Virus record (IMG/VR): IMGVR_UViG_3300005663_001084
Span: 88,929 to 152,928 of that record
Length of the DNA: 64,000 nucleotides
Source: a virus
Direction: 5' to 3' (one strand)
The notes under the pieces were generated by a model that was not told the origin of the DNA, made no database searches, and was given only the letters and a program-made list of their open reading frames with translations. The translations under genes and the position numbers were made by a program. Positions 4,058 through 44,041 of this stretch are shown piece by piece; position 1 is the first letter of the stretch, and every line of letters starts with the position of its first letter.

Positions 4058-5172
4058 GCTACGAGTATCCTGTAGACATCGGCCTTCAAAGACTCACGCG
4101 GGAGCGTACCACTGAACGGGAGTGTTTGCTGCTGGTGCTGGGCAGCCCACTCGCGGCGGCGCGGGTCAAACGCAAAACGTACAGCCTCCCGGTCTGTCGC
4201 CGCCACCGCGTCCTCGATGTCCACGTCAACGTCCCAGTTATCCCCGTACCAAGTTGTAGTGATTTCGCTGCCCGCCGCGTCGTCGAACAGACCCCAGAGT
4301 CGTCCGTTGCTGACCAACTCCTCGATCTCATCTTCGAGGTCCGGGAACTTCTCGATCAGGCCGTCCCTATACTCGTCCTTAATCCACTCGTCCCAGGCTT
4401 CTTCGATGGCACCTTCGGACGCCTTGGCCCACTCCACGTACGTGCTGCTGTTGCCCGTGGTCTCAGCCGCCTTCTCGAAGAGAACCTGGACTTCGTGCGG
4501 AAGCTGGTCGTAGGCCATTTCGTTGTGGTTCGAGTCCTGTACCTCTCGGTAGTCCGATGTCGCTTGGTAGACAGCTTCGGTACGTTCTGGCGACCACACG
4601 TAGTGCACGACGATCAACGGGTTGTCCTCGCTGGCGTAGTGGCAGGCCTGATTGCGGGCGCGTGTACACCACGGTGTACCTCGACCATGGAACATTGCCG
4701 CGTCCGGCGTGGTGACTATGTAAGCTCGGTACTTCCCTTCCTGAGCCACGAACTCAGAGCCGGGCACCAACATCGGGTCTGCCTTGCCCTTCCTTAACTG
4801 GCGGCGGCTGAGGATCGCGCCCTCGGGAACTTCCTGGAGGGCACCCCAGGCCTCTCTCCAGCTTTTGTAATCGAAGAGGTTCGGTTTGACCTCCCAATCT
4901 CCAGCCGTCTTGAGCGTGACGAGCCGAGCGTGGACGCCAAGCAGTTCGCTGATGTCGCTACGGATGTTTTCGTCCTGGAGCCTCATCGGGTCCTGATGCG
5001 AGAGCCACTGCTTCAGCAGCCACGTGCCATACTTCATGTTGGGCGTGGGGTCGGCGTCGCGGACGATGGCCTCGACCTCGTCGGGCGAGATCTCGAAGCG
5101 CCGCGCGGCCCGGTTCAACTGAGCCTGCTGCACTTCCTGGAGAAGGTCGAGGGTATCCTGGAAGACATCCAT
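4054..5172 (-). CDS. hypothetical protein, paralog B of the tandem pair
   Basis: N-terminal 230 aa can be aligned to 2450..4057; its stop overlaps that gene's start. Confidence 0.6.
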   Translation of the reverse strand: MDVFQDTLDLLQEVQQAQLNRAARRFEISPDEVEAIVRDADPTPNMKYGTWLLKQWLSHQDPMRLQDENIRSDISELLGVHARLVTLKTAGDWEVKPNLFDYKSWREAWGALQEVPEGAILSRRQLRKGKADPMLVPGSEFVAQEGKYRAYIVTTPDAAMFHGRGTPWCTRARNQACHYASEDNPLIVVHYVWSPERTEAVYQATSDYREVQDSNHNEMAYDQLPHEVQVLFEKAAETTGNSSTYVEWAKASEGAIEEAWDEWIKDEYRDGLIEKFPDLEDEIEELVSNGRLWGLFDDAAGSEITTTWYGDNWDVDVDIEDAVAATDREAVRFAFDPRRREWAAQHQQQTLPFSGTLPRESLKADVYRILVA

Positions 5173-5344
5173 GCTGCCCCTGTTATACCGCAGGCTGCCT
5201 GTACGTGTCCATATGGTGCTCCCGAGCGGAGCAAGGTGGGAATCTGGGGTAGGTTAGGTGGTGCGGATCGCCCGGTTGCTTAGGCCGGAGGTGGGTGGTT
5301 GGTGAGGCGGGTCTGTACAGTCTACCTATCGGCTGCACCTTGCG

Positions 5345-5668
5345 TCAACTTGAGTCTTTTTCTTCCTGGTGCCGCAAAATCATGCCCGTGCCCCGGCAGT
5401 GCGAGCATGGGTGGTCCTTGAGCAGCTTCAGGACGTCGCCGACTCTGCCGGTGGCTTTCAAAACTTGGCCCTCGATATCGAGACCGGTACCGTCGCACTG
5501 CTCGCACTCGTTGGGGTCCGGCTCGCGGCCGTAGCCCGCCTCGGCCAGGATGTCGGCAATCTCGTCGCAGGTATCGGAGTCCCAGTTGCTGTCGTCACCC
5601 TCGCGGCCAGACGGCCAGAGGATTTTGCAGACCTTCTTGATCACATCGTCGGAGGATAGTTCAGACAT
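5345..5668 (-). CDS. small DnaJ-type (CxxCxGxG) zinc-finger protein
   Basis: CEQCDGTG and CSHCRGTG repeats. Start moved to the internal Met, which overlaps the upstream stop as TGATG. Confidence 0.5.
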   Translation of the reverse strand: MSELSSDDVIKKVCKILWPSGREGDDSNWDSDTCDEIADILAEAGYGREPDPNECEQCDGTGLDIEGQVLKATGRVGDVLKLLKDHPCSHCRGTGMILRHQEEKDSS

Positions 5669-6741
5669 CACGAGAGCCTTTGGAATGGATTGAACCCGTA
5701 CTTGTCCCATAGAGTTATATCATATTCCCGCTCGACCGTCTCGGGTTCGATGGCCAGTCCAAAGATCTCGTTGGCGTTCGAGAAGGTTGTCCTCAAAATC
5801 AGGTCCTCGGAAGCGCCTCGCTCTCGCAGGATCTCAATGCCGCGTGGCCAGAAGGGCAGTGCTGGAATGCCGGACGGTGGGGTGCTGGAGTCCTTGGCCT
5901 CGACCGGATGCGGCGCGTGGTCGGTGCCGATGACGTCGATCTTACCGTCCAAGTACTGGTTGAGCAGTTCCTCCTGGGACGCTGGACTGCGCAGTGGTGG
6001 GTTCATCTTGACCCGGTTTCCGTGGATGGCATAGTCGTCCCAGTTCAGCAGCAGATGGTGGAACGTCCCCTCGATGACAACCTTGTACGGCGGCTTCTCG
6101 TGATGCCTGTACCAGTCAGCGAAGTTGACCGTCTTCGGTGAGCTTGCGTGCGCGATGTAAAACGTGCCTGCGAACCCAGCCTCATGCGCCCACTTCAACT
6201 GCTTCACGATCTGGATAATCTCGGCGTTCTCATGCTGATGCGTTGAATGAGACAGGGGCTCGTCCGGATCGAACTTACCCTGGAAGGCGCTCTCCATCTC
6301 AAAGTGCCCGATGACCGGACCGGTAAAGCCAATCATGGCAATGGTCCGCCAGAGCCACTGCTGATAGGCCCCGTTCAAGATACCCATGTCGCCTGTGCTG
6401 TGGACGAAGAAGATCTTGATGGCGGTGTCCGCAGCCTTCGCGTACAGGATCGCGGCGACGGCCTGCTCGTAGTCCGTGGTCAGCCCGATGTGGCACTTGT
6501 GGCTCACATCTCCCGAGATCGTGCCCTCGTCGTATAGGTGGCGCGAGAGCTTGTAGAATTTCACGCGACGCTCTGCGATGATGTGCCCCTTCACCAACCA
6601 TGGCTTGGGGTTCGGCTGCTCCAGCAGGTACGCGACACCGGCCGCGTCAGCATCCTCGATGGCCCACTGCATGAACGAATGGTCCGGATACTCCAGGCCG
6701 CGCAGGTGCACATGTGGATCGATGGGGGTAACGTATTCCAT
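5668..6741 (-). CDS. pyrC: dihydroorotase-like cyclic amidohydrolase
   Basis: IDPHVHLR (HxH metal site) and GTDHAPHPVEAK (dihydroorotase signature 2). Start set at MEYVTP because the track's MGRRNL is really the SD GGTAGGAGG. Confidence 0.65.
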   Translation of the reverse strand: MEYVTPIDPHVHLRGLEYPDHSFMQWAIEDADAAGVAYLLEQPNPKPWLVKGHIIAERRVKFYKLSRHLYDEGTISGDVSHKCHIGLTTDYEQAVAAILYAKAADTAIKIFFVHSTGDMGILNGAYQQWLWRTIAMIGFTGPVIGHFEMESAFQGKFDPDEPLSHSTHQHENAEIIQIVKQLKWAHEAGFAGTFYIAHASSPKTVNFADWYRHHEKPPYKVVIEGTFHHLLLNWDDYAIHGNRVKMNPPLRSPASQEELLNQYLDGKIDVIGTDHAPHPVEAKDSSTPPSGIPALPFWPRGIEILRERGASEDLILRTTFSNANEIFGLAIEPETVEREYDITLWDKYGFNPFQRLS

Positions 6742-6760
6742 GAGATTCCTCCTACCCATG

Positions 6761-6789
6761 TTATCGGATTGGAGGGGCTATTTCGGCAG
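6761..6789 (-). promoter_or_regulatory. conserved promoter-like element
   Basis: TTATCGGATTGGAGGGGCTATTTCGGCAG, about 20 nt upstream of the pyrC-like start. Confidence 0.55.
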
Positions 6790-6869
6790 AAGAATTTTAG
6801 TCGGTCATGCCCGTCAAGTTCTTAGACGGGTCCTCCACAACGTACCACGTCGGGGGCCGCGCGACCGTG

Positions 6870-7751
6870 CTATTCGTCGCCCAATCCGTTATCCGCTGGG
6901 TCCGGATCTGTAGCATCGGGTTCGAGGGCGGGACCTGGGTCGTCCCCGGGATCGCTCTCGGGATCGGGGATGACTGGGATCGCTTCTTTCGTCGCGGATG
7001 GTTCCGTTTCTTTGTCTTCCCCTCCTGGTACATCATCTTTTTGAAGTCCATCGTCGCTGTCTCCCAGGTCTAACGGCGGTGCGCTGCCCAAGTCCAGAGG
7101 CTGTACCTCGTGGGTCTCCGGCGGCTCGTCGCCGGGGTGCATGATCTGTGTGCCCTCCGGACCCTTGCGATCCGGAATGCCGTACTCGTTGGCCTCGGTC
7201 TCGTCCATCGGGTGGACCATATCGGTGAACCATTCCTGGATACGGCGCATCATCTCAGGTGGCTCGACGGCCTCGAACTCCATTTCGAGGTCCATCATCT
7301 TCCGGTTCTTGCGGCCGTCTTTGCCTTCAGCCTGCGGCCCGAACTTCACGCGGATGGAAGCGCGCTCGACAGTCTTCATACCCTTGTCGTACTGATGCTT
7401 CTTGACGCTGGCGGCCTCCAGGCTGACAGACATGCGGACCTTGAGCCGCTTCAGTTGCAGTGTGGATGGCGGGACCAGAGCGATGAGCGGGATGTCGATG
7501 ACGCGGCCCGACGGCATCCGGAGCCGCTTCTCGATGGGCTCACCGGACTCTTCATCGAAGTAGTGGTTGAGGACGTTTACGAAGTGCTGGCCGAGGATGT
7601 CCTGAGTGGACTGCGCAACGTGCTGCATGCCACGGGCGAGGTCCGCCAACCCGTGTACACCGGGTGGGTTTTCCTCGCCCGCGTCGGCAGCGGCCTTGGA
7701 ATCGCCGCCGCCATTGTCATCGTCTTTCTTACTCCAGGGCCACCAGGACAT
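6870..7751 (-). CDS. hypothetical protein (family-2 paralog) with D/P/E-rich low-complexity C-terminus
   Basis: The core RVIDIPLIALVPPSTLQLKRLKVRMSVSLE can be aligned to the next gene. Confidence 0.5.
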   Translation of the reverse strand: MSWWPWSKKDDDNGGGDSKAAADAGEENPPGVHGLADLARGMQHVAQSTQDILGQHFVNVLNHYFDEESGEPIEKRLRMPSGRVIDIPLIALVPPSTLQLKRLKVRMSVSLEAASVKKHQYDKGMKTVERASIRVKFGPQAEGKDGRKNRKMMDLEMEFEAVEPPEMMRRIQEWFTDMVHPMDETEANEYGIPDRKGPEGTQIMHPGDEPPETHEVQPLDLGSAPPLDLGDSDDGLQKDDVPGGEDKETEPSATKEAIPVIPDPESDPGDDPGPALEPDATDPDPADNGLGDE

Positions 7752-7754
7752 AAG

Positions 7755-8360
7755 CTACTCGGTCACGCCGCCTCCGTCACCAACGGTCAGCTTCGGCGCT
7801 TTGTCTTTGTCGATGGGCTGGGTCACATCGCGGATGATCGCCTCGGTCACGCGGGCCAGCGCTTCGGGCATCGGCTGCCGGTTGGCCTCGACATGGAAGC
7901 TGTACTTGGCGCGGGTGTCTGTCTTTCGAGTCTGCTCCCGGTGATGGCTGATGCTGCCGGTCGCCTTCACGCCCCACGGTCCGAAGCCGTACTTGACGCC
8001 GACCTCCAGCTTGGAATCGGTTGCCGACTTGGTCTCTTCGACGTTGTTGATATCGATCTCGAAGTCCACCTCCACCTTGTCGACGCCGAATGCAGGCATG
8101 GGCAGCACGGCGAACAGCGGCATGTCGATTACACGGTTGAGCGTCTTGCCCGTGGCCTCACCGTCGTCTGAACGCTCAGCCTGCTGGTAACCGAAGCGAA
8201 CGATCCTCGCGTTGCCGTCCTCGTCCAGGCAGACCTTGTCGAAGAACGTGGCGAAGGCCGCGCATGCGACCTCGTGCGCCTCGATGGCGGCGACGATGGG
8301 CGTGGCCACCATCTTGTGGATAGGTAGCGCGTTGATCTGACCCGAGACGGGGTTGGCCAT
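7755..8360 (-). CDS. hypothetical protein (family-2 paralog)
   Basis: RVIDMPLFAVLPMPAFGVDKVEVDFEIDI block is shared with 6870..7751. Confidence 0.5.
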   Translation of the reverse strand: MANPVSGQINALPIHKMVATPIVAAIEAHEVACAAFATFFDKVCLDEDGNARIVRFGYQQAERSDDGEATGKTLNRVIDMPLFAVLPMPAFGVDKVEVDFEIDINNVEETKSATDSKLEVGVKYGFGPWGVKATGSISHHREQTRKTDTRAKYSFHVEANRQPMPEALARVTEAIIRDVTQPIDKDKAPKLTVGDGGGVTE

Positions 8361-8393
8361 GTCATTCTCCTGGATGTGAGTTCAGACCTGTCT

Positions 8394-8948
8394 CTACGTA
8401 GCCGACATGGGATAGGCACCGGCCTGTTCCAAGTCGTCCACGTTCTTGAACTGCATGAACTCGTGGTAACTTATGGTGGCTTCGTGGCGCTGCCCCAGGG
8501 CGTCGCCGCTGGAGTACGTGCGCAGTACGAAAGGATCGTCGGGTGTGCTCTCTGGAGGGTAGGTGTGTTCATAGAACCGTTGGAGCGGCTTGAGCAGACT
8601 GAAGATGGCGGAGGTGCGGCCCTCCACTCCGTTCAGATCCAGCATCCGGACCCAACCATACAGGATAGCGTAGCGGACCCAGCCTTCGGTGGTCTTGAAA
8701 TCGGCCGCGTTGAGCCCCAGCTTCTGCCACTGGGCCATGCTGACGTGCGGGCCGAGCAGGTCCGGGTCCACGTCCATGCGCATCGCGTAGCGGCTCCGGA
8801 TCGTATCGCCATGGCTGGCAGGTGACTCGATGAAGTTGCCCTCGTCGCTCATCCAGCCGTGCAGCGTTCCGCGCTGCTCCAGCAGATCCAGTACCGTGAC
8901 CTGAACATCCATGGCGCTAAGAGTACCGCAGGGTTGAGTTTGGATCAA
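8394..8948 (-). CDS. hypothetical protein
   Basis: 184 aa ORF with 4-nt overlap coupling. Confidence 0.45.
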   Translation of the reverse strand: MIQTQPCGTLSAMDVQVTVLDLLEQRGTLHGWMSDEGNFIESPASHGDTIRSRYAMRMDVDPDLLGPHVSMAQWQKLGLNAADFKTTEGWVRYAILYGWVRMLDLNGVEGRTSAIFSLLKPLQRFYEHTYPPESTPDDPFVLRTYSSGDALGQRHEATISYHEFMQFKNVDDLEQAGAYPMSAT

Positions 8949-9283
8949 TCACTTTCGCCGCCGGGGAGTAGTCCGGCGTACGGTGGCTCGCTGCCCGGCT
9001 GATCCAGCCAAGCCTTCTCGACCTGCATCAGTGCAGCAATGTCAGCACTGTTCATCGTCCGCAGGTAGAAGGTGCCCACCCGGAAGACGTTGCCGTCCGG
9101 CGTGGCGAAGCGAACCTGCTTACCGTGGTAGCCCGCCTTGACTTCAGAGTCGCCGATGATCTCTACGATGCGGCCGGGCTGCTGGTCAAAGGGCTGTTGA
9201 GTCCCGTCAGGCATGGCCACGACGGAGGCAGGCAGGAAGACAGGTTGCTTACAGTACGGCTCATCGATCATCTTCCGGAGCAT
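8945..9283 (-). CDS. hypothetical protein
   Basis: 112 aa; the 5'UTR carries a GGACAGGACA element just before the ATG. Confidence 0.45.
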   Translation of the reverse strand: MLRKMIDEPYCKQPVFLPASVVAMPDGTQQPFDQQPGRIVEIIGDSEVKAGYHGKQVRFATPDGNVFRVGTFYLRTMNSADIAALMQVEKAWLDQPGSEPPYAGLLPGGESD

Positions 9284-10064: not shown

Positions 10065-10090
10065 TTATATCGGATTGGGGAGGCTATTCC
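10065..10090 (-). promoter_or_regulatory. conserved promoter-like element
   Basis: TTATATCGGATTGGGGAGGCTATTCC, about 30 nt upstream of the 9796..10038 start. Confidence 0.55.
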
Positions 10091-17745: not shown

Positions 17746-18327
17746 TTACTCCATCAGCGATTCGAGGACGGTCTCGCTTACGGTGGGCTCTTGCTGTGCG
17801 GGGCGGATGGCGAAGGTGATGTGGAAGTCCTGCGCCTTGCCTTCCTCGGACTGAGGCAGCTTCTTGAGGCCGAGGCTGCGGCGAAGCTGTTCAAGCTGTG
17901 GGCTGTCAACCTGGACGAACCAGACGCGGCTCATCTCGTCCCAGCCTGCCGGATCGAGATCGATCACGTCGCCCAGGGTGTACTCGTAGAAGCCCGCACC
18001 GACCTTGTCCTTCCACTCATCGCCGTGCTTGTCGCGAAGCTGCTTGGCCTCGTCGTTCTTCACGACGGTGATATGCGGATTGTCGAAGCTGGGGATGACA
18101 TCGTCGACCAGTTTGCCCTGCGCCTTCAAGGTGGCGAAGACCATGGCCGGGATCACGTCGTCGACTTCGAGGCAAACCCAGGGCTTGTCCGGATCAGTGT
18201 CTTCCGGCTTGAGCTTGCCCATGAAGGTGAGGGGGCGGCGGTTGTGCGCGCCGTCGATCTCGTCCAGGAACTGGAGGTCGAGCCAGTCAGCCTGCATACA
18301 GGTCGCCGTAGCCTCGAAGAGCCCCAC
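17746..18327 (-). CDS. hypothetical protein
   Basis: 193 aa ORF. Confidence 0.4.
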   Translation of the reverse strand: MGLFEATATCMQADWLDLQFLDEIDGAHNRRPLTFMGKLKPEDTDPDKPWVCLEVDDVIPAMVFATLKAQGKLVDDVIPSFDNPHITVVKNDEAKQLRDKHGDEWKDKVGAGFYEYTLGDVIDLDPAGWDEMSRVWFVQVDSPQLEQLRRSLGLKKLPQSEEGKAQDFHITFAIRPAQQEPTVSETVLESLME

Positions 18328-19563: not shown

Positions 19564-19640
19564 GTATATCGGGACGCCCAGGGGAAGTCAACATAATTTT
19601 ATAGGAGTTTCTAAAAAAATTTATATGAGTTATCCGGGGC
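19561..19640 (-). promoter_or_regulatory. degenerate promoter-like element plus AT-rich region
   Basis: CAAGTATATCGGGACGCCCAGGGG, then ATAATTTTATAGGAGTTTCTAAAAAAATTTATATGAG. Confidence 0.35.
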
Positions 19641-19887
19641 CTGCTACCCTCCCGAACCGTTCGTCGGCGTCAGTTCTCTCATTGGGCCATGGCACGAACT
19701 CGGCGATGATCCTGCCCGGAGCCCGGACGTAGAAGCCCTCCGCGCCTACCTGGGTGACTGTGCCACCCGGGCACCGCTGACCGGCGGCGTACTCAGCCCG
19801 CGCCCACTGGCGCTTCTGTTCGGCCCGGTGCCGCCGCTCCTGGGGGTCTTCCTGGCCCTGCTTGGGTTGTGTGTTACGTGACATCAT
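19630..19887 (-). CDS. small hypothetical protein
   Basis: Start set at MMSRNT to avoid a 38-nt overlap. Confidence 0.3.
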   Translation of the reverse strand: MMSRNTQPKQGQEDPQERRHRAEQKRQWARAEYAAGQRCPGGTVTQVGAEGFYVRAPGRIIAEFVPWPNERTDADERFGRVAGPG

Positions 19888-21022
19888 AACCTCTGCTTTC
19901 TGCGGCTCCATGCCCCGCTGCGGTCTTCCTGACCAGGATAGGCCAGATCCATACCAGTTTGCGTTCCCTGCGCCCCTCGCCTATGGCCACTCTCCGGAAG
20001 TGGCCCTTGCGCCAGTGGGGCCTGGGAGACTTCCGGGAGCCCTCCCCGCCCTCGGTGGGCTCTGCTTCGACCTGATCGATCAGGGGCTTGATCTTGACCG
20101 AGGAGCCCACCACGACCTCCTGAGGAATCATGCCCTCCTCGATCTGACGCCTGACCGATTTGCGTCGTTTGGAACTGGTCTTTCGTTTCTTGAAGTCTTG
20201 GAGCCGGACGTAAAGCTCGTGCGGGTTCTCCAGGATGTCGGCGTCCGGGCAGGACATGTAGAGGAACAAATTGGCCACCACACGGACCAGGATCGAGTCC
20301 ACGTCTGTCCGCTGCCAACGCATCTGTCCACCGGCCAGGAGGTGCGCGATTGGATCGAAGACCTGGGCCTGATCCAGCTTGTCCTGCTGCTCTATGCCGA
20401 GCATTACGAGGTTATCGACCGAACGGGTCTCACCCTCGTCCCAGCCGATGTTCTGAAACCGTACCGTCCAGTCGTGGTGTGTCTTGTCCTGCTCCCCGCG
20501 AGCCACGTAAAGCACGCGGCACTGGTAGTCGATGTCTGCCAGTGTCTTTCCGCCGGACGAGGTGAAGACCTGGGCCATAGGTCCCGGTTCCCCGACCGGT
20601 CCCCAAGACACGTAGCAGCCCTCGGCCTCGACGTACCCCCCACGAACTCCAGGAAAGCGTACGCGGTTGGGCGGCAGCGCAATATAGACGGCGGGAAACG
20701 GCGGGTGAATCTCGCTTATTGCCAAGCGGGCCTCAGTCTCAACCAGTAAATCAAACAGATCGGCCGAAGGCCTGATCACGTGACGACCGCAGGCGTCCCA
20801 GACTGCTGTTTGATAGATCTCGTTGACCGCTGGAGAGTGCCCAGCCGTGCCTCGGATCATCGTCTTGACAGCCTCGGACTCTACGAAGTAGGCAAAACCC
20901 GTGCGCTCCGAACTCACATGGCTCCTGGCCTCATCCCAGTCCACGCCCAACATCCGCATCAGCGGGTGTTTCATCATCCGGTCGCGGAAGGATTTCCAGT
21001 GCGTGAGTTTCTCTTTGGCCAC
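19874..21022 (-). CDS. hypothetical protein with basic KRKTSSKRRK segment
   Basis: 382 aa ORF. Confidence 0.45.
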   Translation of the reverse strand: MAKEKLTHWKSFRDRMMKHPLMRMLGVDWDEARSHVSSERTGFAYFVESEAVKTMIRGTAGHSPAVNEIYQTAVWDACGRHVIRPSADLFDLLVETEARLAISEIHPPFPAVYIALPPNRVRFPGVRGGYVEAEGCYVSWGPVGEPGPMAQVFTSSGGKTLADIDYQCRVLYVARGEQDKTHHDWTVRFQNIGWDEGETRSVDNLVMLGIEQQDKLDQAQVFDPIAHLLAGGQMRWQRTDVDSILVRVVANLFLYMSCPDADILENPHELYVRLQDFKKRKTSSKRRKSVRRQIEEGMIPQEVVVGSSVKIKPLIDQVEAEPTEGGEGSRKSPRPHWRKGHFRRVAIGEGRRERKLVWIWPILVRKTAAGHGAAESRGYDVT

Positions 21023-22170: not shown

Positions 22171-22225
22171 ACTATATCGGGAGCCCTCCGTATTTGCAAG
22201 AGTATTTTATATGATTTTCCAATAA
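22171..22225 (-). promoter_or_regulatory. promoter-like element with AT-rich extension (class B)
   Basis: CTATATCGGGAGCCCTCCGTATTTGCAAGAGTATTTTATATGATTTTCCAATAATTATT. Confidence 0.5.
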
Positions 22226-23200
22226 TTATTCCAGGAGTTCCAGCACCCTATGGACGAACCGGGGACCCGCATTGGGACCCCGTACGAAGCCGTTGTAGAC
22301 CTGGACCAGTGGAGCCCCGGCCTTCAGGTATTGGAGCACCTCAACGGCGCTGAAGATCCCGCCGCAGCCGATTACGACCTTCTTGATATGCGCCGTCACG
22401 TAATGCACCAGCGCCACACTCAGGCCCCGGACAGCGTCTCCGCTCCGACCGCCCTTGCCGTACTTCTCATGGACCGAGGGAAGCGTGTTCGAGCAGATGA
22501 AGCCTGACAAGTTGAAGTCGTCGGCGAGGATCAGGATCTGTTCGAGGTCATCGCCTTGGATATTGGGCGACAATTTGACCAGGAGTGGTCGGCCCCTGCG
22601 ATACAGGCAGCAAGCGTTCAGGAGTTCTCTCAGTGCGCTGGGGTCCTCGAACGTCTTGCCCTCGGCCGTGTTCGGACAGCTTATGTTGAGAACCGTGTAC
22701 GCCCCAAGGCCGCCCAGGAGCCGGTAGCTCTCGCTTATGTCCTCGATGGCCGCGTCGCCCATGATGTTGGGATCGTGCGTCTTGGCGATGTTGACGCCGT
22801 AGGCCTGCGAGCGGCACATCAGCAGGCGTTCCCGGACCATCCAGGCAGGCTCGCCGTTGAGACCCATCCGGTTCATCACGTCGCGGTCGCCGACACGGAA
22901 CATCCTGGGCCGCTCATTACCTGGGCCACCCTGACAGGTCACGCTGCCCACCTCGACCCAGCCGAAGCCGTAGTCCTCGGCCACGTCCACAAGAATGCCA
23001 TTCTTATCGAAACCGGCCGCGAGGCCGATGGGGTTGTTGATCTCGGTACCGAAGAGATGGGTCTTGAAGATGTCGGGATTGTTACCTTCCGGCTCGTACA
23101 GGCCGGGGGCTAAGCGCCGCTTCAGCATGCCCCGCACAGCGATATCGTGGGCGCGCTCAGGATCGAGAAGGGTAAGAAGGAGGTGGGCCAGTCTTTCCAT
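22226..23200 (-). CDS. pyrD: dihydroorotate dehydrogenase (quinone), class 2
   Basis: LDPERAHD N-terminus; NPIGLAAGFDKNG; GFGWVEVGSVTCQGGPGNERPR (signature 1); VVIGCGGIFSAVEVLQYLKAGA (signature 2); SCPNT. Confidence 0.85.
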   Translation of the reverse strand: MERLAHLLLTLLDPERAHDIAVRGMLKRRLAPGLYEPEGNNPDIFKTHLFGTEINNPIGLAAGFDKNGILVDVAEDYGFGWVEVGSVTCQGGPGNERPRMFRVGDRDVMNRMGLNGEPAWMVRERLLMCRSQAYGVNIAKTHDPNIMGDAAIEDISESYRLLGGLGAYTVLNISCPNTAEGKTFEDPSALRELLNACCLYRRGRPLLVKLSPNIQGDDLEQILILADDFNLSGFICSNTLPSVHEKYGKGGRSGDAVRGLSVALVHYVTAHIKKVVIGCGGIFSAVEVLQYLKAGAPLVQVYNGFVRGPNAGPRFVHRVLELLE

Positions 23201-23380
23201 GGCGAGTCCTCAAATAAGTCGGCCCCCCGAACAACCGGCGGTGGGGGGGTTTCGCCGTCATCCGGGGGACCAGTGCGGTGACAGCCCAGTCGTTTTGAAC
23301 TGCACCACGACCTCATCCTACCGTAAGCGCCCCACTTCGTGCAAGCTGTCTGAGTCAGCGGTTTATCCAGGTCCAGTATA

Positions 23381-23797
23381 TCATCGAACTGCGTCCGCCA
23401 TGTTCCGGATGACACCCTGGACGAGGTCGCTCTTGAAGTACTGCTGGAGCACCATGCGAAGTTCGTCCGCGTTCTCCAGTAGGGACTTCTCACCGACGAT
23501 GTCGTTGGAGACCGGGTACGCGGCCTCGGAGACGTGCGAGAGCTTCAACAGGGTACGGCTGATGTCGGGCACATCGATACTGATGGCAAAGCTATGGTGC
23601 AGCCGGAAGTTCGGAGTGACCCTTTCCTCCTCCATGTCGGCAGAATCGGTACGCTCTTCCGTCTTCACCCAGGCTTCCAGATCGTGGCGGCCCTGGGATG
23701 TCTTGTGCTGCTGGTTGAACTGCTTCGCGGCTTCCCGAAGGATGGTGATGGGAGCATCCGGGTGGGCGTCGACTTTGATGTTGGGCCAGAAGTCCAT
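23381..23797 (-). CDS. hypothetical protein
   Basis: 138 aa; promoter copy immediately upstream. Confidence 0.4.
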   Translation of the reverse strand: MDFWPNIKVDAHPDAPITILREAAKQFNQQHKTSQGRHDLEAWVKTEERTDSADMEEERVTPNFRLHHSFAISIDVPDISRTLLKLSHVSEAAYPVSNDIVGEKSLLENADELRMVLQQYFKSDLVQGVIRNMADAVR

Positions 23798-23802
23798 ACT
23801 CT

Positions 23803-23830
23803 CTATATCGGATTGGGCAGGCTATTTGGT
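23803..23830 (-). promoter_or_regulatory. conserved promoter-like element
   Basis: CTATATCGGATTGGGCAGGCTATTTGG; the A13 tract follows on the plus strand. Confidence 0.55.
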
Positions 23831-25576: not shown

Positions 25577-26915
25577 CTTTGCGCTCCCAGTAAAGTTTCA
25601 GCGCCTCAGTCCCACAGCGGTCCTGAAACTGGTCGATAGTGTCCTCGTTATCCAGGCCCTTCCGGATCATGTCGTCAACAATCTCGGGGCAGTCCACCAG
25701 TATACGCTCCGCGAGCCTGCGCAGTCCAGACTCTTCGGGGTTTGGGATTTCCAGTATCCGATTGATCCGGCCGGGGCGGGAAGCGATTTCTCCGCTCTGC
25801 CTCCCGGACAAGGCCGGGTCGAGCACGTCGAGCCGGTTCGTGGTGACGATCAGGAACAGGCCGTCCACGCGCTCGACCCCGTCGATTCGGTTGAGCAGGC
25901 AGTCAAACGTGAGCGGTTGCTTCATCTGGGACTTGATGACGTTCTCGCGGCCCTCGAAGACTGTGTCGATATCTTCGAGCAGCGCCATACAAGGCGTGTC
26001 GTCGAGCATGTCGTTCCACTCTTTGCTGAACTCGGAGTTGCTCATGCTCGCCAGATCGTAGACGTAGACAGGTAGGTTGAGATCCTCCGCCACTGCACGG
26101 GCCAAAGTCGTCTTGCCGTTGCCGGGCCTGCCGTGAAGAAGCCAACCGCGTCTCCAGGGCAGGCTCCGCTCGAAATACCAGTCCCGACTCTTGTGCCAGC
26201 GCTTCGCCTCTTCCACGACGTCGACTAGAGCGCTGTGGATAATCAGACTATCAAGCGCATCCTCGTCTTCGCTAACCTTCTGAGGGCCGAAGTCATCGTG
26301 GGTCCATACCAGGGGTCGGTGTTGACGCATAGAGAGCAGGTAGCCAGCGCTGTCGTCGTCCTCTCGGCCAGCGAGAACAGGACCTTGACTCGTATCTTTA
26401 TCGACGGTGTACTGAGAACTTCCTGAGATGTAGATCACTTCGTAGCGGTTGAAGCTCTTGTCCGTGCGAAAGGAGTTGTACATCTCCGCAGCTTTGACAG
26501 CCAACTCATCCGGATCGAACGTGCCACGCAGGTAGCGCACCACGAAGCCCTTACGATTACCTTCCTCGCTATCGGAATTGCCGGATTCGCTAACCCAGAG
26601 AAAGCGCCAGCCCTTTCGGAAGATTTTGACATTGGTGGACAGTTTCTCGAAGGCGACCAGAACGCGACGCCGCTCCGGTCGGACAAATAGCTCGTCACCA
26701 AAGAATGTTCGGGACGTGTAGCGGGAGGCTGTGAACTCCCGGAACAGGTACATCTTGAATCCCTGAGTCAGCTCCCCCCGTTGAAAGGTGGTGGTCCGTA
26801 CAACGTGCTCAACGATCTGTCCGAGGAACGTCTTGATGTGCCTCCAGAAGCCGACGATCAGACCGCCGATGCCTACGCCGCCAAGGATTGCGAGTGGGTT
26901 GCTGAGGAGGTCCAT
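25467..26915 (-). CDS. BCS1-like AAA+ ATPase with N-terminal transmembrane anchor
   Basis: MDLLSNPLAILGGVGIGGLIVGFW transmembrane segment; Walker A GWLLHGRPGNGKTTLARAV; LFLIVTTN; BCS1-type layout. Confidence 0.6.
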   Translation of the reverse strand: MDLLSNPLAILGGVGIGGLIVGFWRHIKTFLGQIVEHVVRTTTFQRGELTQGFKMYLFREFTASRYTSRTFFGDELFVRPERRRVLVAFEKLSTNVKIFRKGWRFLWVSESGNSDSEEGNRKGFVVRYLRGTFDPDELAVKAAEMYNSFRTDKSFNRYEVIYISGSSQYTVDKDTSQGPVLAGREDDDSAGYLLSMRQHRPLVWTHDDFGPQKVSEDEDALDSLIIHSALVDVVEEAKRWHKSRDWYFERSLPWRRGWLLHGRPGNGKTTLARAVAEDLNLPVYVYDLASMSNSEFSKEWNDMLDDTPCMALLEDIDTVFEGRENVIKSQMKQPLTFDCLLNRIDGVERVDGLFLIVTTNRLDVLDPALSGRQSGEIASRPGRINRILEIPNPEESGLRRLAERILVDCPEIVDDMIRKGLDNEDTIDQFQDRCGTEALKLYWERKDEQAESGDGGGHPADADGHAEPERSGVHAGSDGEAR

Positions 26916-27736
26916 CAGATCTCGAAAGTCTGCCCGACCTCAACGAAGCCTGCGAACCCATTGTTCTGCGCCTTACCGTGACCCTCGAAAACTTCCGGTA
27001 CCGAGTTGTAATGATAGAGCCACATGCGCTCTTTGATCTCCGGGTCCAATGTCGCCAGATCATCGTAGTGCGCGTGCACGTTCGAGCGGAATGGTGTCGT
27101 CTCACAGTCGTGCAGGATCGTGGCTGCCTGCTTGTAGAAGTCACGAAGCTGATTCGGACAAAACTGTGTATCGCCTGTCAGAAATGTCTTCGGCAGCGCG
27201 GGGATCGTCATGGTCCCCTTCTTGTATTTCTGAATCATCAGGCCGTAGCAGTGCATGATCCGGTAGCCGGACACGACGTGTACCGTCTGGACTGGCGTGA
27301 GCAGCACGTCTTCCCATACGAACGAGTCGTTGATCTTGAGCGGCTGACAGTCGAAGAACGTGGTCAGCGTGGCCTCGCCGCCCTGGATCGTGGACAGGCC
27401 GCCCTTGAGGCTGCTGTCCCAAAGCTCGTGCATCAGACCCTCGATGCAAAACAGCTTGGGCTTTCCCAAGGTCGGGTTGAAGTACGTACACAGCGCCAGC
27501 CATTCCAGGCCACCGATATGATCCGCGTGCAGATGTGTGATGTAGACGCCGTCGATGTACGACAGGCCGGAGGGATCGTCGCTGTCACCATACTGCTCGT
27601 GCAGCATGTCCTGGGAGCGCTGGCCGCAGTCGATCAAGAGCCGCTTCCCGCTTTCGGCTTCGATGACCATGTTGGACTGGCCGAGGCCCGCCCCGGCGAA
27701 CGCAGATCCCACGCCTACGAACCGGAGTTTTGGCAT
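26915..27736 (-). CDS. metallo-beta-lactamase-fold hydrolase (RNase Z / ElaC-like)
   Basis: YITHLHADHIGG HxHxDH motif; start coupled to the AAA stop. Confidence 0.6.
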   Translation of the reverse strand: MPKLRFVGVGSAFAGAGLGQSNMVIEAESGKRLLIDCGQRSQDMLHEQYGDSDDPSGLSYIDGVYITHLHADHIGGLEWLALCTYFNPTLGKPKLFCIEGLMHELWDSSLKGGLSTIQGGEATLTTFFDCQPLKINDSFVWEDVLLTPVQTVHVVSGYRIMHCYGLMIQKYKKGTMTIPALPKTFLTGDTQFCPNQLRDFYKQAATILHDCETTPFRSNVHAHYDDLATLDPEIKERMWLYHYNSVPEVFEGHGKAQNNGFAGFVEVGQTFEI

Positions 27737-29594: not shown

Positions 29595-29626
29595 CCTATA
29601 TTATCGGATTCTGAGGGCTATTTGGT
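29595..29626 (-). promoter_or_regulatory. conserved promoter-like element
   Basis: CCTATATTATCGGATTCTGAGGGCTATTTGG. Confidence 0.55.
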
Positions 29627-33032: not shown

Positions 33033-33053
33033 CGTCGTTCCTTCTGTCCCGCA

Positions 33054-33130
33054 CTTATACTATCGGGAAGCGGGAGGAATTGCAAGAGATCTTTATGTGA
33101 TTTTCATATATTTTTTATTGGTTTTGTCTT
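33054..33130 (-). promoter_or_regulatory. promoter-like element with AT-rich extension (class B)
   Basis: TACTATCGGGAAGCGGGAGGAATTGCAAGAGATCTTTATGTGATTTTCATATATTTTTTATTGG; related to the 22171 copy. Confidence 0.5.
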
Positions 33131-35122: not shown

Positions 35123-35158
35123 TATATATCTTATCGGATCGGGAGGGCTATTTCGGCA
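35123..35158 (-). promoter_or_regulatory. conserved promoter-like element
   Basis: CTATATATCTTATCGGATCGGGAGGGCTATTTCGGCAGG, upstream of 34443..35111. Confidence 0.55.
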
Positions 35159-35163
35159 GGAAA

Positions 35164-36123
35164 TTATGTGCGGCCGGTGGGGTGCATCCTGGGTTCCGGG
35201 GGATCGATACGGAATTTCTTAGCCATAAATACAGCGTCTCTGACCACTTGCTGGGCCATTTCGTGAGCCGCCTCGTTATCGTTCAGGCGGGCCTTGTCGA
35301 ACGAGAGTTCCTCATTCGGGTGGCTGAGATTCATCGCAACCCACTGCTGCGGCATGTAGTATCCAAAGTCCCAGAAGCCACGGTAGAGGCTGTCGGCCAC
35401 CAACTGGACGTACGAGTTCCGCTCCATGATCTCGTTGTAGCCGCTGTCCTCCGTCGGCTCGTGATCGTGCTCATCCTTCGAGGAAATAAAGAAGGCCGCA
35501 ACACGCCCGTGCTGGCGCTGGTCGTAGTGGACCTCGTCGGTCTGACTGAGGGCGATACAGCGGTCCCGCCACTCCTCGTTCTTCGAGGCGAACTGCTCCG
35601 CCGTCACGAAGTAGCCGCCGTCCATGGAAATCAGCCGGTCGCAGAACGCCTTGAGCCGAGACGACATCGCACTCTGGTTGACGCCTGTGCTGAGAAGCAG
35701 AACGTCGCAGGCCAGGACCTCGGGGTACAGGTCCTGCATCGGGTCGAACGGGAAGCAGTTGCAGGGGAAACCGCACAGCGCCGAGCAGGTGCTGTAGCAG
35801 TTGTTGCAGTACTCGATCTGGTACTCGCGGAGGTTGACCTCACGGATCTCCACGTCCTCATCGTCCAGGACTGCCTCCAGGCCCTCGCGCAGCAGAAGCT
35901 GCGAGTTCGATAGCTCGTGGGCGCAGGACAACTCGACGTTCGAGCGGCTGCTACCATGGACGGCCAGGACCCGGATCGGACCCTTGCCGTGTATGTTAAG
36001 CGCCTTCTGGCAGCGGCGGATGTTCTCCGCGTGGCGCTCGCGCCCCTCTTCGAGGTCGACCACCTGCCACCACTCGTCGACATAGCGACCCTTGATGAAC
36101 TCGTCGCCGGAAATCTTAGCCAC
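35164..36123 (-). CDS. flavodoxin-like / NAD(P)H-dependent FMN reductase-like protein with compact Cys cluster (iron-sulfur flavoprotein-like)
   Basis: RVLAVHGSSRSN resembles the FMN-reductase N-terminal motif; CNNCYSTCSALCGFPCNC cluster; GTG start with GGAG SD. Confidence 0.35.
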   Translation of the reverse strand: MAKISGDEFIKGRYVDEWWQVVDLEEGRERHAENIRRCQKALNIHGKGPIRVLAVHGSSRSNVELSCAHELSNSQLLLREGLEAVLDDEDVEIREVNLREYQIEYCNNCYSTCSALCGFPCNCFPFDPMQDLYPEVLACDVLLLSTGVNQSAMSSRLKAFCDRLISMDGGYFVTAEQFASKNEEWRDRCIALSQTDEVHYDQRQHGRVAAFFISSKDEHDHEPTEDSGYNEIMERNSYVQLVADSLYRGFWDFGYYMPQQWVAMNLSHPNEELSFDKARLNDNEAAHEMAQQVVRDAVFMAKKFRIDPPEPRMHPTGRT

Positions 36124-36331
36124 GACCGCGCTCCTGCCGGTAGACCGGACTGAAGCCCAGACGGACGTATAGGTAGTCGGTCGACTCCACGTCTTCAGAG
36201 CCAACGCTGGCCCGCTCGAACGGAAGCTCCGTGCCCTGGAGGACCTGCTTGCCCTTCTCGAAGTAGGTGTCGCTGTAGTCGTATTCCCGGAAGGGGATGA
36301 CCTCGGCAGTTTCCAGTTCGGTGTTAGCCAT
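36116..36331 (-). CDS. small hypothetical protein
   Basis: Start set at MANTELETAEV; the ATG overlaps the upstream TAA. Confidence 0.3.
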   Translation of the reverse strand: MANTELETAEVIPFREYDYSDTYFEKGKQVLQGTELPFERASVGSEDVESTDYLYVRLGFSPVYRQERGRG

Positions 36332-39520: not shown

Positions 39521-39583
39521 GTGGTGTCTCCCGAAGAGATTACGGGCATTATGCCGTACCGGGCAGCAAAGTGCAAGAAGGAC

Positions 39584-39838
39584 CTAAGTCTTGCCAGACG
39601 CAGGCTGTGGGACCCTTTCCGCCTGGGGCGGCGTGACGCGCATCTTCTCGAACGCGTCCGCGTAGATCTTCAGGTTGCCCCGGCAGGCCTCGTTTTCCTG
39701 CTCAAGCTCCTTGATCCGGGGCCTGAGCATGGCCCTGAAGTAGATCGCCACCAGGATGGCGATAGCCAGACAGGTCAGGAATCCCGCCACGTACGCGAAG
39801 CCCAGGACGCCCCAGGTGATCTCGATTTCTGCCAACAT
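39584..39838 (-). CDS. small single-pass membrane protein
   Basis: Start set at MLAEIEITWGVLGFAYVAGFLTCLAIAILVAIYF with GGAG SD. Confidence 0.45.
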   Translation of the reverse strand: MLAEIEITWGVLGFAYVAGFLTCLAIAILVAIYFRAMLRPRIKELEQENEACRGNLKIYADAFEKMRVTPPQAERVPQPASGKT

Positions 39839-39849
39839 GGTAGTGTCTC

Positions 39850-44025: not shown

Positions 44026-44041
44026 CCACCCTCCAAACAGA

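What the first reader, a model, noticed from the sequence alone, without database searches (positions are those of the whole stretch)
5668..6741. Pyrimidine de novo synthesis genes in the phage: PyrC-like amidohydrolase (and PyrD at 22226..23200)
A dihydroorotase-signature protein (DPHVHLR; GTDHAPHPVEAK) and a textbook class-2 dihydroorotate dehydrogenase (both PROSITE-like signatures, LDPERAH N-terminus) catalyse consecutive steps from carbamoyl-aspartate to orotate. They are encoded 16 kb apart, each behind its own phage promoter copy.

Phage carriage of one pyr gene is occasional; carrying two consecutive steps suggests deliberate boosting of pyrimidine supply during replication. The PyrC-like protein is followed by a translationally coupled DnaJ-type zinc-finger mini-protein.
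Basis: partly seen in the sequence, partly recalled or inferred. Interest (0 to 1): 0.6.

Follow-up and report, generated by a model that had tools for sequence, protein, structure and literature searches.

The report
Jumbo phage carries pyrC–pyrD pair
A large phage from deep-sea sediment encodes the two enzymes that turn carbamoyl-aspartate into orotate, probably to keep its host making DNA and RNA building blocks during infection; large phages are already known to carry such genes, though both enzymes here are unusual variants.

Summary
The window is part of a 224-kb tailed phage from Loki's Castle sediment, with a T4-type portal, a terminase, SbcCD and 11 tRNAs.

ORF 5668-6741(-) is a compact, 357-aa, barrel-only dihydroorotase. 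All metal ligands and substrate-binding residues are invariant in its family. Its best solved relative is the M. jannaschii dihydroorotase. Distant relatives occupy the pyrC slot of a complete pyr operon. It is invisible to Pfam and scores far below the curated cut-offs.

ORF 22226-23200(-) has class-2 dihydroorotate dehydrogenase architecture but is not textbook. The catalytic Ser is a Cys, here and in all 120 nearest homologues. This variant is known from anaerobic fungi.

The two families travel together. They are adjacent in DPANN archaea and in other large viral contigs. A related phage conserves both genes at 76-77% identity, with dN/dS about 0.3.

Two details of the finding are wrong:
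- Only pyrC has the repeated phage promoter motif directly upstream.
- pyrD has a different upstream region, with a conserved hairpin.

The coupled zinc-finger mini-protein is real but restricted to this phage lineage.

Huge-phage genome records already list pyrC, pyrD and pyrE, so this is a new member of a known kind. No other pyr gene lies in the window. Function is inferred, not measured.

The parts
5668..6741 (-). pyrC-like gene: compact (357 aa, barrel-only) dihydroorotase
   Evidence: ORF. It equals LCGC14_0164730. The best NCBIfam hits are all dihydroorotase. H10, H12, R14, N44, K109, H146, H198, D274 and H278 are invariant in 53 homologues. The family profile's best PDB hit is 7UOF, the M. 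jannaschii dihydroorotase, at 152 bits. AF2 model pLDDT 97.5. The top Foldseek hit is 7uof.
6748..6753 (-). Shine-Dalgarno AGGAGG, 6 nt before the pyrC ATG
   Evidence: Read directly from the sequence. The same arrangement is present in the related phage locus L060.
6762..6782 (-). Copy of the repeated promoter-like motif AATAGCCNNNCCAATCCGATA, directly upstream of pyrC
   Evidence: Five copies in the window, all on the - strand, against 0.01 expected by chance. It is conserved at the same place upstream of pyrC in L060.
5345..5668 (-). 107-aa mini-protein with two CxxCxGxG motifs (one DnaJ-type zinc centre); its start overlaps the pyrC stop (TGATG)
   Evidence: Sequence. PF00684 at 23.3 bits and NCBIfam anti-TRAP at 24.8 bits, both below cut-off. 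It is 74% identical and also overlapping in L060, with dN/dS 0.28. It was found nowhere else.
22226..23200 (-). pyrD gene: dihydroorotate dehydrogenase with class-2 architecture and a Cys catalytic base (Cys175)
   Evidence: PF01180 at 180.7 bits. Class-2 NCBIfam models score 240 and 197 bits. The best PDB hits are all class 2, and the alignment puts Cys175 opposite the catalytic Ser. All 120 nearest homologues have Cys. AF2 model pLDDT 95.1 with N-terminal helices 2-10 and 14-26. All top 50 Foldseek hits are class 2.
23220..23272 (-). Hairpin with a stem of about 20 bp in the pyrD leader, followed by CUUAUUUG and the GAGGA ribosome-binding site; a terminator or attenuator candidate
   Evidence: Folding of the window and of L061 gives the same hairpin although several stem bases differ. 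The consensus scan reports a weak terminator-like site at 23237-23220.
23315..23344 (-). Weak sigma-70-like pair TTGCAC-N18-TAGGAT upstream of the pyrD leader
   Evidence: Read from the sequence. L061 conserves it as TTGCAC...TACGAT. It falls below the threshold of the consensus scan.
23806..23826 (-). Copy of the repeated motif nearest pyrD; it precedes ORF 23381-23797, not pyrD itself
   Evidence: ORF map.

Best explanation
The window belongs to a jumbo tailed phage, probably with a bacterial host, that carries two auxiliary metabolic genes for the middle of de novo pyrimidine synthesis.

The proposed pathway in an infected cell, all of it inferred, is:
1. The host aspartate carbamoyltransferase makes carbamoyl-aspartate.
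2. The phage dihydroorotase, a binuclear-metal TIM-barrel amidohydrolase stripped to its catalytic barrel, cyclises it to dihydroorotate.
3. The phage FMN-dependent dihydroorotate dehydrogenase oxidises that to orotate. It has class-2 architecture, an N-terminal two-helix acceptor domain and a Cys catalytic base.
4. Host PyrE and PyrF convert orotate to UMP.

The dihydroorotase reaction is freely reversible (textbook knowledge), so it only gives net flux if dihydroorotate is drawn off. That explains why the two genes travel as a pair.

Shown here: gene identities, conservation of the catalytic residues, phage context, linkage of the two families, and purifying selection. Inferred: enzymatic activity, direction of flux, the electron acceptor, and the benefit to the phage.
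For: Phage context:
- T4-type portal, PF07230 at 141.8 bits, plus terminase and SbcCD PHROG hits.
- 11 tRNA genes.
- Anti-Pycsar Apyc1 and AcrVA2-like genes near pyrD.
- Independent NCBI, ENA and Logan assemblies carry pyrC, and ENA contigs carry it and pyrD next to the same neighbours.

pyrC-like gene:
- The six best NCBIfam hits are dihydroorotase models, and the first four span residues 12/13 to 300-340. Allantoinase and hydantoinase models match only residues 167-300.
- All four His ligands, the bridging Lys, the catalytic Asp and the substrate-binding Arg14, Asn44 and His278 are invariant in 53 homologues.
- The family profile scores 152 bits on the M. jannaschii dihydroorotase, against 78 for allantoinase and 62 for hydantoinase.
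- The structure model is confident (pLDDT 97.5) and is closest to 7UOF.

Context of relatives:
- A Sphaerochaetaceae relative closes a pyrBI-pyrE-pyrF-pyrD operon.
- A Pacearchaeota relative is adjacent to a Cys-type pyrD, between the genes for elongation factors aEF-2 and aEF-1α.
- A pyrD homologue lies within 10 kb of the compact dihydroorotase in 26 of the 47 loci from other organisms or contigs.
Locus L010 confirms one such case.

pyrD:
- all place it in class 2.
- His18 is nearly invariant and GN..PR.FR invariant.

Selection:
- A related phage keeps pyrC (76% identity), the mini-protein (74%) and pyrD (77%), with dN/dS of 0.28, 0.28 and 0.33.
Against: - Neither protein reaches a curated equivalog cut-off. 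pyrC has no Pfam hit at E <= 0.01 and scores 110.8 bits against a cut-off of 452. pyrD scores 240 against 267, and 197.1 against 200.
- The catalytic base of PyrD is Cys, so its acceptor and kinetics cannot be read across from Ser-type class-2 enzymes.
- No pyrB, pyrE or pyrF was found in the window among the ORFs scanned. About 160 kb of the contig was not seen.
- dN/dS of about 0.3 is no lower than for the neighbouring ORF of unknown function (0.26).
- There are no expression or enzyme data.
Confidence: 0.75

Rival explanations
1. Counter-defence rather than simple supply. The pair refills the pyrimidine pool when host immunity depletes or diverts pyrimidine nucleotides, for example through dCTP-depleting enzymes or cCMP/cUMP signalling.
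For: pyrD lies between an anti-Pycsar Apyc1-like gene (26915-27736) and an AcrVA2-like gene (19874-21022). The related phage keeps the same neighbourhood.
Against: The only evidence is loose proximity, 1-4 kb with many ORFs of unknown function in between. In other viral contigs the pair sits among unrelated genes. De novo synthesis from carbamoyl-aspartate is a slow way to counter acute depletion.
Confidence: 0.08
2. The PyrC-like protein is a different cyclic amidohydrolase (allantoinase, hydantoinase or dihydropyrimidinase), or the pair acts on another (dihydro)pyrimidine, for instance to make a modified base.
For: The fold alone does not discriminate: allantoinases and dihydropyrimidinases also appear in the Foldseek list with TM-scores of 0.68-0.75. 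The protein is far below the dihydroorotase equivalog cut-offs. A Cys acid/base is also used by dihydropyrimidine dehydrogenase (established knowledge).
Against: Dihydroorotase models and structures rank first and are the only ones aligned end to end. The residues that hold the substrate carboxylate (Arg after HxH, Asn of the PN motif, His of DHAPH) are invariant. Relatives occupy the pyrC position of a full pyr operon. The partner scores 240 bits on class-2 dihydroorotate dehydrogenase models against 30 bits on PreA.
Confidence: 0.06
3. The PyrC-like protein is a catalytically dead, structural dihydroorotase-like subunit, like PyrC' of Pseudomonas aspartate carbamoyltransferase.
For: It is highly divergent from canonical dihydroorotases and lacks the adjacent domain.
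Against: All metal ligands and the catalytic Asp are invariant across the family. No carbamoyltransferase gene is nearby in the window or in the viral relatives.
Confidence: 0.03
4. The genes are cellular and the apparent phage context is an assembly or binning artefact.
For: The nearest named relatives are in MAGs of DPANN archaea and of a Tepidisphaeraceae bacterium.
Against: The independent ENA and Logan assemblies, the latter from two sequencing runs, carry pyrC with the same gene order as the window. Both genes are flanked on both sides by phage-type ORFs and share the phage's G+C and codon-position pattern. pyrC carries the phage-specific repeated motif. A related phage conserves the synteny.
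Confidence: 0.02

Closest known systems
Type I dihydroorotase of Methanocaldococcus jannaschii (PDB 7UOF) and bacterial type I enzymes (B. anthracis 3MPG, S. aureus 3GRI, A. aeolicus 3D6N)
   Same: TIM-barrel amidohydrolase with the same catalytic motifs: HxH, the bridging Lys, two further His ligands, the catalytic Asp and the DHAPH motif. 7UOF is the best sequence-profile hit (152 bits) and the best fold hit (TMq 0.77).
   Different: About 21% identity. The phage protein starts 6 residues before the HxH motif and ends soon after the barrel, so the roughly 50 N-terminal and 60 C-terminal residues that build the adjacent beta-domain are missing. The match covers model positions 50-354 of 436 and chain residues 52-365 of 423.
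Dihydroorotase domain of human CAD, and E. coli type II PyrC
   Same: Similarly compact, about 350-360 residues and barrel-dominated. CAD structures superpose with TMq and TMt of about 0.71. A Ser/Thr pair follows the bridging Lys at the position of the CAD flexible-loop Thr; this position mapping comes from memory of the CAD structure, not from a test.
   Different: Sequence similarity to CAD is confined to the C-terminal half. Type II enzymes score only 35-38 bits with the family profile.
Class 2 (quinone-dependent) dihydroorotate dehydrogenases: human, rat, M. tuberculosis, E. coli
   Same: 27-35% identity over the whole length, including the N-terminal LLDPExAH helices. The FMN and substrate motifs are present. 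The His and Arg of the acceptor tunnel are conserved, though mapping them to human His56 and Arg136 is from memory. All top 50 fold hits are class 2.
   Different: The catalytic Ser is replaced by Cys175 (NISCPNT). The protein is slightly below the NCBIfam equivalog cut-offs.
Cys-type class-II dihydroorotate dehydrogenases of anaerobic or facultative fungi (SjUra9, DbUra9, ArUra9; Bouwknegt et al. 2021, PMC8520639)
   Same: Class-2 scaffold with Cys at the catalytic-base position, found in organisms from anoxic habitats.
   Different: Those enzymes are eukaryotic. ArUra9 lacks the N-terminal domain, whereas the phage enzyme keeps it. In that paper Cys was neither always necessary nor sufficient for anaerobic function, so acceptor independence cannot be assumed here.
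pyr genes annotated in huge-phage genomes (Al-Shayeb et al. 2020, PMC7162821, supplementary GenBank files)
   Same: Phages above 200 kb that carry de novo pyrimidine genes. The records list pyrC-like, dihydroorotate dehydrogenase and pyrE genes in several genomes.
   Different: The annotated examples are other enzyme types: a 436-aa type I pyrC, a 'homodimeric type' pyrC and a class 1A-like dehydrogenase, usually together with pyrE. None matched the window proteins closely in the phage collection.

Membership tests
Dihydroorotase (EC 3.5.2.3), amidohydrolase superfamily | Binuclear metal-site ligands: HxH, bridging (carboxylated) Lys, two further His, and the catalytic Asp | tested here: met
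   H10, H12, K109, H146, H198 and D274 are invariant in 53 homologues and align with the same motifs in 7UOF and 3MPG. Carboxylation and metal content were not testable.
Dihydroorotase (EC 3.5.2.3), amidohydrolase superfamily | Residues that bind the substrate carboxylate: Arg after HxH, Asn of the 'PN' motif, His of 'DHAPH' (E. coli Arg20, Asn44, His254, from established knowledge) | tested here: met
   R14, N44 and H278 are invariant.
Dihydroorotase (EC 3.5.2.3), amidohydrolase superfamily | Score above the curated family thresholds (Pfam PF01979; NCBIfam TIGR00857 and PRK models) | tested here: not met
   No Pfam family at E <= 0.01. NF002668 scores 110.8 bits against a cut-off of 452, and TIGR00857 scores 100.7 against 279. 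None of the 120 listed relatives has a precomputed Pfam domain.
Dihydroorotase (EC 3.5.2.3), amidohydrolase superfamily | Closer to dihydroorotases than to other cyclic amidohydrolases | tested here: met
   The family profile scores 152, 107 and 104 bits on dihydroorotases, against 78 for allantoinase and 62 for hydantoinase. 19 of the 25 best NCBIfam models are dihydroorotase models.
Dihydroorotase (EC 3.5.2.3), amidohydrolase superfamily | Genomic association with other pyrimidine-synthesis genes | tested here: met
   L040 reads pyrBI-pyrE-pyrF-pyrD-compact dihydroorotase, and in L025 the gene is adjacent to pyrD. pyrD lies nearby in 26 of the 47 loci from other organisms or contigs.
Bacterial/archaeal type I dihydroorotase (about 420-450 aa) | Adjacent (composite beta) domain built from N- and C-terminal extensions | tested here: not met
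   The protein begins 6 residues before HxH. The model has only barrel elements. The match covers positions 50-354 of the 436-position model.
Dihydroorotase (EC 3.5.2.3) | Catalytic activity on carbamoyl-aspartate and dihydroorotate | not testable with these tools
   Needs an enzyme assay or complementation.
Class 2 dihydroorotate dehydrogenase (EC 1.3.5.2) | DHO_dh TIM-barrel domain with the FMN and orotate motifs | tested here: met
   PF01180 at 180.7 bits. The motifs GFDK, NRMGLN, K140, SCPN, K209, NT, GG.SG and GGI are invariant or nearly so.
Class 2 dihydroorotate dehydrogenase (EC 1.3.5.2) | N-terminal two-helix extension that forms the acceptor (quinone) tunnel | tested here: met
   The alignment to the rat and human enzymes starts at residues 3-8. 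The AF2 model has helices 2-10 and 14-26. All top 50 fold hits are class 2. E15, A17 and H18 are nearly invariant and P98, R99 invariant.
Class 2 dihydroorotate dehydrogenase (EC 1.3.5.2) | Serine as catalytic base (E. coli Ser175, human Ser215) | tested here: not met
   Cys175 aligns with the Ser of the rat enzyme. All 120 homologues have Cys.
Class 2 dihydroorotate dehydrogenase (EC 1.3.5.2) | NCBIfam equivalog cut-off | tested here: not met
   NF003652 scores 240.1 against 267, and TIGR01036 scores 197.1 against 200. Both are narrow misses.
Class 2 dihydroorotate dehydrogenase (EC 1.3.5.2) | Use of a respiratory quinone as electron acceptor | not testable with these tools
   Needs enzyme assays with quinones, fumarate, NAD+ and free flavins.
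Class 1 dihydroorotate dehydrogenase (1A/1B) | Cys base together with no N-terminal extension, and best match to class-1 models | tested here: not met
   Cys is present, but class-1 models score only 72-82 bits against cut-offs of about 270. The class-1 structure 1EP1 scores 55 bits against 155 for class 2. The N-terminal extension is present.
Phage auxiliary metabolic gene | Metabolic gene of cellular type embedded in a bona fide phage genome, flanked by phage genes, and conserved in related phages | tested here: met
   Portal, terminase, SbcCD and tRNA genes. Independent assemblies. Related phage loci L060 and L061, with dN/dS of about 0.3.

The most novel reading that the evidence does not exclude
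The compact dihydroorotase and the Cys-type, class-2-shaped dihydroorotate dehydrogenase form a mobile two-gene 'orotate module'. It is exchanged among DPANN archaea, anaerobic bacteria and very large phages.

The Cys-type enzyme would work without a respiratory quinone pool, as reported for the Cys-type class-II enzymes of anaerobic fungi. The phage would then keep pyrimidine synthesis running in an anoxic, energy-starved sediment host whose own enzyme is limited by its electron acceptor.
Probability: 0.3. Interest if true: 0.6.

Novelty: new member of a known kind. Interest (0 to 1): 0.4.

Why it matters
- It adds a concrete, testable case to the general statement that huge phages carry de novo nucleotide-synthesis genes. 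Here a phage supplies exactly the reversible cyclisation step and the redox step that pulls it forward.
- The compact dihydroorotase family has about 70 clusters at 50% identity with E <= 1e-30 and 2149 hits with E <= 1e-5. It has no Pfam hit, so Pfam-based surveys of viral metabolic genes will miss it.
- A Cys-type, class-2-shaped dihydroorotate dehydrogenase turns out to be widespread. It occurs in uncultivated archaea, in a Planctomycete and in phages. This gives enzymologists prokaryotic counterparts of the fungal 'anaerobic' enzymes.
- None of this changes the picture of phage biology. It refines it.

Tried and rejected
Searches that led nowhere:
- Megablast of window 5000-9000 against 50,697 phage records gave no match.
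- tblastn of both proteins against the phage records gave only distant hits (24-40% identity), several of them in short records that look like bacterial fragments filed as phage.
- Single-protein scans of IMG/VR found nothing. The alignment-based scan found one true family member, L010.
- Two contig look-ups failed, probably because my ORF starts differ from the recorded gene calls.
- Literature searches for phage pyrC or pyrD as metabolic genes found no dedicated paper. Only the general statement and the supplementary annotations of Al-Shayeb et al. turned up.
- The homologue search for the mini-protein returned only the protein itself.
- Rfam found nothing in either leader, only tRNAs.

Readings considered and rejected:
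- Allantoinase or hydantoinase identity.
- A dead PyrC'-like subunit.
- A class-1 dehydrogenase.
- An archaeal virus. The A/T-rich-flanked TTGCAA-N17-TATAGT promoters, the AGGAGG ribosome-binding sites and an 84-nt long-arm tRNA-Tyr point to a bacterial host. This evidence is suggestive, not proof.
- Mis-assembly.

Host clue, not taken further: a Tepidisphaeraceae (Planctomycetota) chromosome carries a 50%-identical Cys-type pyrD and has the same G+C as the phage, 60%.
Full report
**Observation.**
- The pyrC-like gene runs 5668-6741. The ATG at 6741 follows AGGAGG by 6 nt. The 357-aa product is identical to LCGC14_0164730, a 'hypothetical protein' of the Loki's Castle marine-sediment metagenome, carried on a contig of 224,854 bp.
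- pyrD runs 22226-23200 and encodes 324 aa, identical to LCGC14_0164990.
- The quoted motifs are present: DPHVHLR, GTDHAPHPVEAK and LLDPERAH.
- The next ORF, 5345-5668, starts in a TGATG overlap with the pyrC stop and has two CxxCxGxG motifs.

**Is it a phage?** Yes.
- The window encodes a T4-type portal (PF07230, 141.8 bits), a large-terminase-like protein, SbcC- and SbcD-like nucleases, an HNH endonuclease and a block of 11 tRNA genes.
- Near pyrD it encodes an anti-Pycsar Apyc1-like protein and an AcrVA2-like protein.
- Almost all genes are on one strand and most have no known family.
- Independent ENA and Logan assemblies, the latter from two sequencing runs, join pyrC to the same neighbours as in the window (pyrD context). 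A chimeric assembly is therefore unlikely.
- A bacterial rather than archaeal host is favoured by promoter-like sites of the form A/T-rich tract, TTGCAA, 17 nt, TATAGT; by AGGAGG ribosome-binding sites; and by an 84-nt tRNA-Tyr of the long-arm type. This is suggestive only.
- No close relative exists among 50,697 deposited phage genomes.

**The pyrC-like protein.** Pfam reports nothing at E <= 0.01, and none of the 120 listed relatives has a precomputed Pfam domain. Other evidence identifies it as a dihydroorotase.
- NCBIfam: the six best hits are dihydroorotase models (best 110.8 bits, E 6e-32), and the first four span residues 12/13 to 300-340. Allantoinase, hydantoinase and ErtD models match only residues 167-300. 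Every score is far below its equivalog cut-off.
- Conservation: in an alignment of 53 family members, H10, H12, K109, H146, H198 and D274 are invariant. So are R14, N44 and H278. By established knowledge these last three positions hold the substrate carboxylate in dihydroorotases.
- Profile search of the PDB: the M. jannaschii dihydroorotase 7UOF comes first (152 bits), then other dihydroorotases (104-107 bits), then allantoinase (78) and hydantoinase (62).
- Structure: the AlphaFold model is very confident (pLDDT 97.5) and 7UOF is its best fold match (TMq 0.77). Fold alone does not separate dihydroorotases from allantoinases.
- Shape: the protein is barrel-only. The N- and C-terminal segments that form the adjacent domain of 420-450-aa type I enzymes are absent.
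- Family size: an exhaustive search finds 71 clusters at 50% identity with E <= 1e-30, almost all 345-370 aa long.

**Genomic context of relatives.** This is the strongest functional evidence.
- In a Sphaerochaetaceae MAG, a 31%-identical member closes an operon that reads pyrB-pyrI fusion, phosphoribosyltransferase (pyrE), OMP decarboxylase (pyrF), pyrD, compact dihydroorotase.
- In a Pacearchaeota MAG the gene is adjacent to a Cys-type pyrD, between the genes for elongation factors aEF-2 and aEF-1α. That is a cellular chromosome.
- A pyrD homologue lies within 10 kb of the gene in 26 of the 47 fetched loci from other organisms or contigs, often within 0.1-2 kb.
- Large viral-type contigs carry the pair too, adjacent or nearby: L004 (384 kb), L010 (an IMG/VR contig of 129 kb) and L008 (204 kb). 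It sits among ORFs of unknown function and without other pyr genes.
- At least 24 of the top-120 relatives of PyrC share their exact contig length with a top-120 relative of PyrD.
- A neighbour-joining tree without support values puts the window's protein and its three closest relatives in a clade of DPANN archaea and large viral contigs. Spirochaetes and CPR bacteria fall outside it.

**PyrD.** It is a dihydroorotate dehydrogenase with class-2 architecture.
- PF01180 scores 180.7 bits.
- The best NCBIfam models are all quinone-dependent class 2, at 240 bits against a cut-off of 267 and 197.1 against 200. Class-1 models score 72-82 bits.
- It is 27-35% identical over the full length to the human, rat, M. 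tuberculosis and E. coli enzymes, starting at the N-terminal helices.
- The model (pLDDT 95.1) has helices at 2-10 and 14-26, and all top 50 fold matches are class 2.
- It is not textbook. The catalytic Ser of class 2 is Cys175 (NISCPNT against NVSSPNT in the rat enzyme). All 120 nearest homologues have Cys, and so do the partners next to compact dihydroorotases wherever the motif could be read.
- His18 is nearly invariant and GN..PR.FR invariant, so the acceptor tunnel is probably retained.
- Cys-type class-II enzymes are documented in anaerobic or facultative fungi. There they support respiration-independent pyrimidine synthesis, although Cys is neither always necessary nor sufficient (PMC8520639).
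- A Tepidisphaeraceae (Planctomycetota) chromosome with 60% G+C, the same as the phage, carries a 50%-identical Cys-type pyrD in a clearly cellular context. This is a weak hint about the host or the gene donor.

**Expression signals.**
- The motif AATAGCCNNNCCAATCCGATA occurs five times, always on the coding strand, against 0.01 expected.
- One copy ends 20 nt before the pyrC start and is conserved there in the related phage.
- The copy nearest pyrD precedes the upstream ORF 23381-23797.
- The 180-nt gap in front of pyrD instead holds a weak TTGCAC-N18-TAGGAT pair and a hairpin with a stem of about 20 bp, followed by CUUAUUUG and the ribosome-binding site.
- The related phage has both elements, and the hairpin is kept although several stem bases differ. 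With two sequences and z-scores of -1.4 and -2.1, this is only a lead.

**Conservation in a related phage.**
- Two contigs of another metagenome (GCA_044343095.1) carry the same neighbourhoods. pyrC is 76% identical, the overlapping mini-protein 74% and pyrD 77%.
- Nei-Gojobori dN/dS values are 0.28, 0.28 and 0.33, against 0.26 for a neighbouring ORF of unknown function.
- The genes are therefore under purifying selection as part of the phage genome, but no more strongly than their neighbours.
- The mini-protein was found nowhere else. It is not a general partner of this dihydroorotase family.

**Mechanism and rivals.**
- The best-supported reading is a two-enzyme auxiliary module. It converts host carbamoyl-aspartate to orotate and leaves the first and last steps to the host.
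- Coupling of the reversible cyclisation to an irreversible oxidation explains why the pair is conserved. This is an inference from textbook enzymology.
- The rivals, given lower weight for the reasons stated in the rival list, are a counter-defence role, a non-pyrimidine substrate, a dead structural subunit and an assembly artefact.

**Comparison with what is known.**
- Al-Shayeb et al. 2020 state that many huge phages carry de novo purine and pyrimidine genes. Their deposited genomes list pyrC-like, dihydroorotate dehydrogenase and pyrE genes.
- The kind is therefore known, and this is a new member.
- The additions here are three: the enzyme subtypes (a barrel-only dihydroorotase missed by Pfam and a Cys-type class-2-shaped dehydrogenase), their tight linkage across DPANN archaea and large viruses, and the splitting of the pair in this phage lineage.

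Noticed in passing
window 57561-60338 (-): A 925-aa protein matches the eukaryotic Major Vault Protein domains (MVP_shoulder 97.7 bits, Vault_3, Band_7). Its only relatives in the phage collection are in three metagenomic huge-phage genome records of 462-735 kb (LR756500, LR756501, LR756503), at 40-41% identity over 93% of its length.
   Followed up: partly
window 6762-6782, 10068-10088, 23806-23826, 29602-29622, 35132-35152 (all -): The repeated motif AATAGCCNNNCCAATCCGATA lies just upstream of genes. There are 5 copies against 0.01 expected. Its two conserved blocks are only about 10 nt apart, unlike a sigma-70 promoter. It is probably a phage-specific (middle or late?) promoter.
   Followed up: partly
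window 22171-22199, 33033-33114, 19564-19629, 52993-53131, 39521-39849 (-): A second class of upstream element looks like a strong bacterial promoter: an A/T-rich tract, then TTGCAA or TTGACT, about 17 nt, then (GA)TATAGT or TATAC. These may be early promoters read by the host polymerase.
   Followed up: no
window 60441-63998 (-): Array of 11 tRNA genes: three Ser, three Leu, and one each of Tyr, Ile(tat), Arg, Lys and Gln. Rfam confirms 7 of them. The tRNA-Tyr is 84 nt, the bacterial long-arm type.
   Followed up: no
window 26915-27736 (-), 19874-21022 (-), 17746-18297 (-): Candidate counter-defence genes flank pyrD: an anti-Pycsar Apyc1-like metallo-beta-lactamase-fold protein, an AcrVA2-like protein and a 2H-SAK-domain protein. 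These come from precomputed Pfam hits. The first is conserved in the related phage.
   Followed up: no
window 35164-36204 (-): A 346-aa protein has an NADPH-dependent FMN reductase domain (PF03358, 36.5 bits). It could be relevant to the flavin or electron-acceptor question for the FMN-dependent PyrD, but no link was tested.
   Followed up: no
window 23220-23272 (-) and L061 9928-9980: A long GC-rich hairpin followed by a short U-tract sits in the pyrD leader. The related phage keeps the structure although several stem bases differ. It may be a terminator for the upstream gene or an attenuator.
   Followed up: partly
window 39850-47031 (-): Cluster of SAM-methyltransferase-domain proteins (39850-40986, 41654-42358, 42355-43026) and large GT4-type glycosyltransferases (43027-44334, 44623-47031), just downstream of the portal and terminase genes on the coding strand.
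   Followed up: no
window 6870-7751 and 7755-8360 (-): Two consecutive DUF2589 (PF11655) proteins lie immediately upstream of pyrC. Their function is unknown.
   Followed up: no
L040 4363-6021 and 8220-9998: In a Sphaerochaetaceae MAG the pyr operon contains a PyrB-PyrI fusion protein (552 aa) and an elongated 592-aa PyrD.
   Followed up: no
L004 11125-12261; L006 6374-8682: Next to the pyrD and pyrC-like pair, a Lyase_1-family gene (adenylosuccinate lyase or fumarase type) recurs. It appears in a 384-kb contig with a virus-like gene content and, together with an archaeal IMP cyclohydrolase, in a 406-kb archaeal-type contig. A possible link through fumarate or purine synthesis was not examined.
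   Followed up: no
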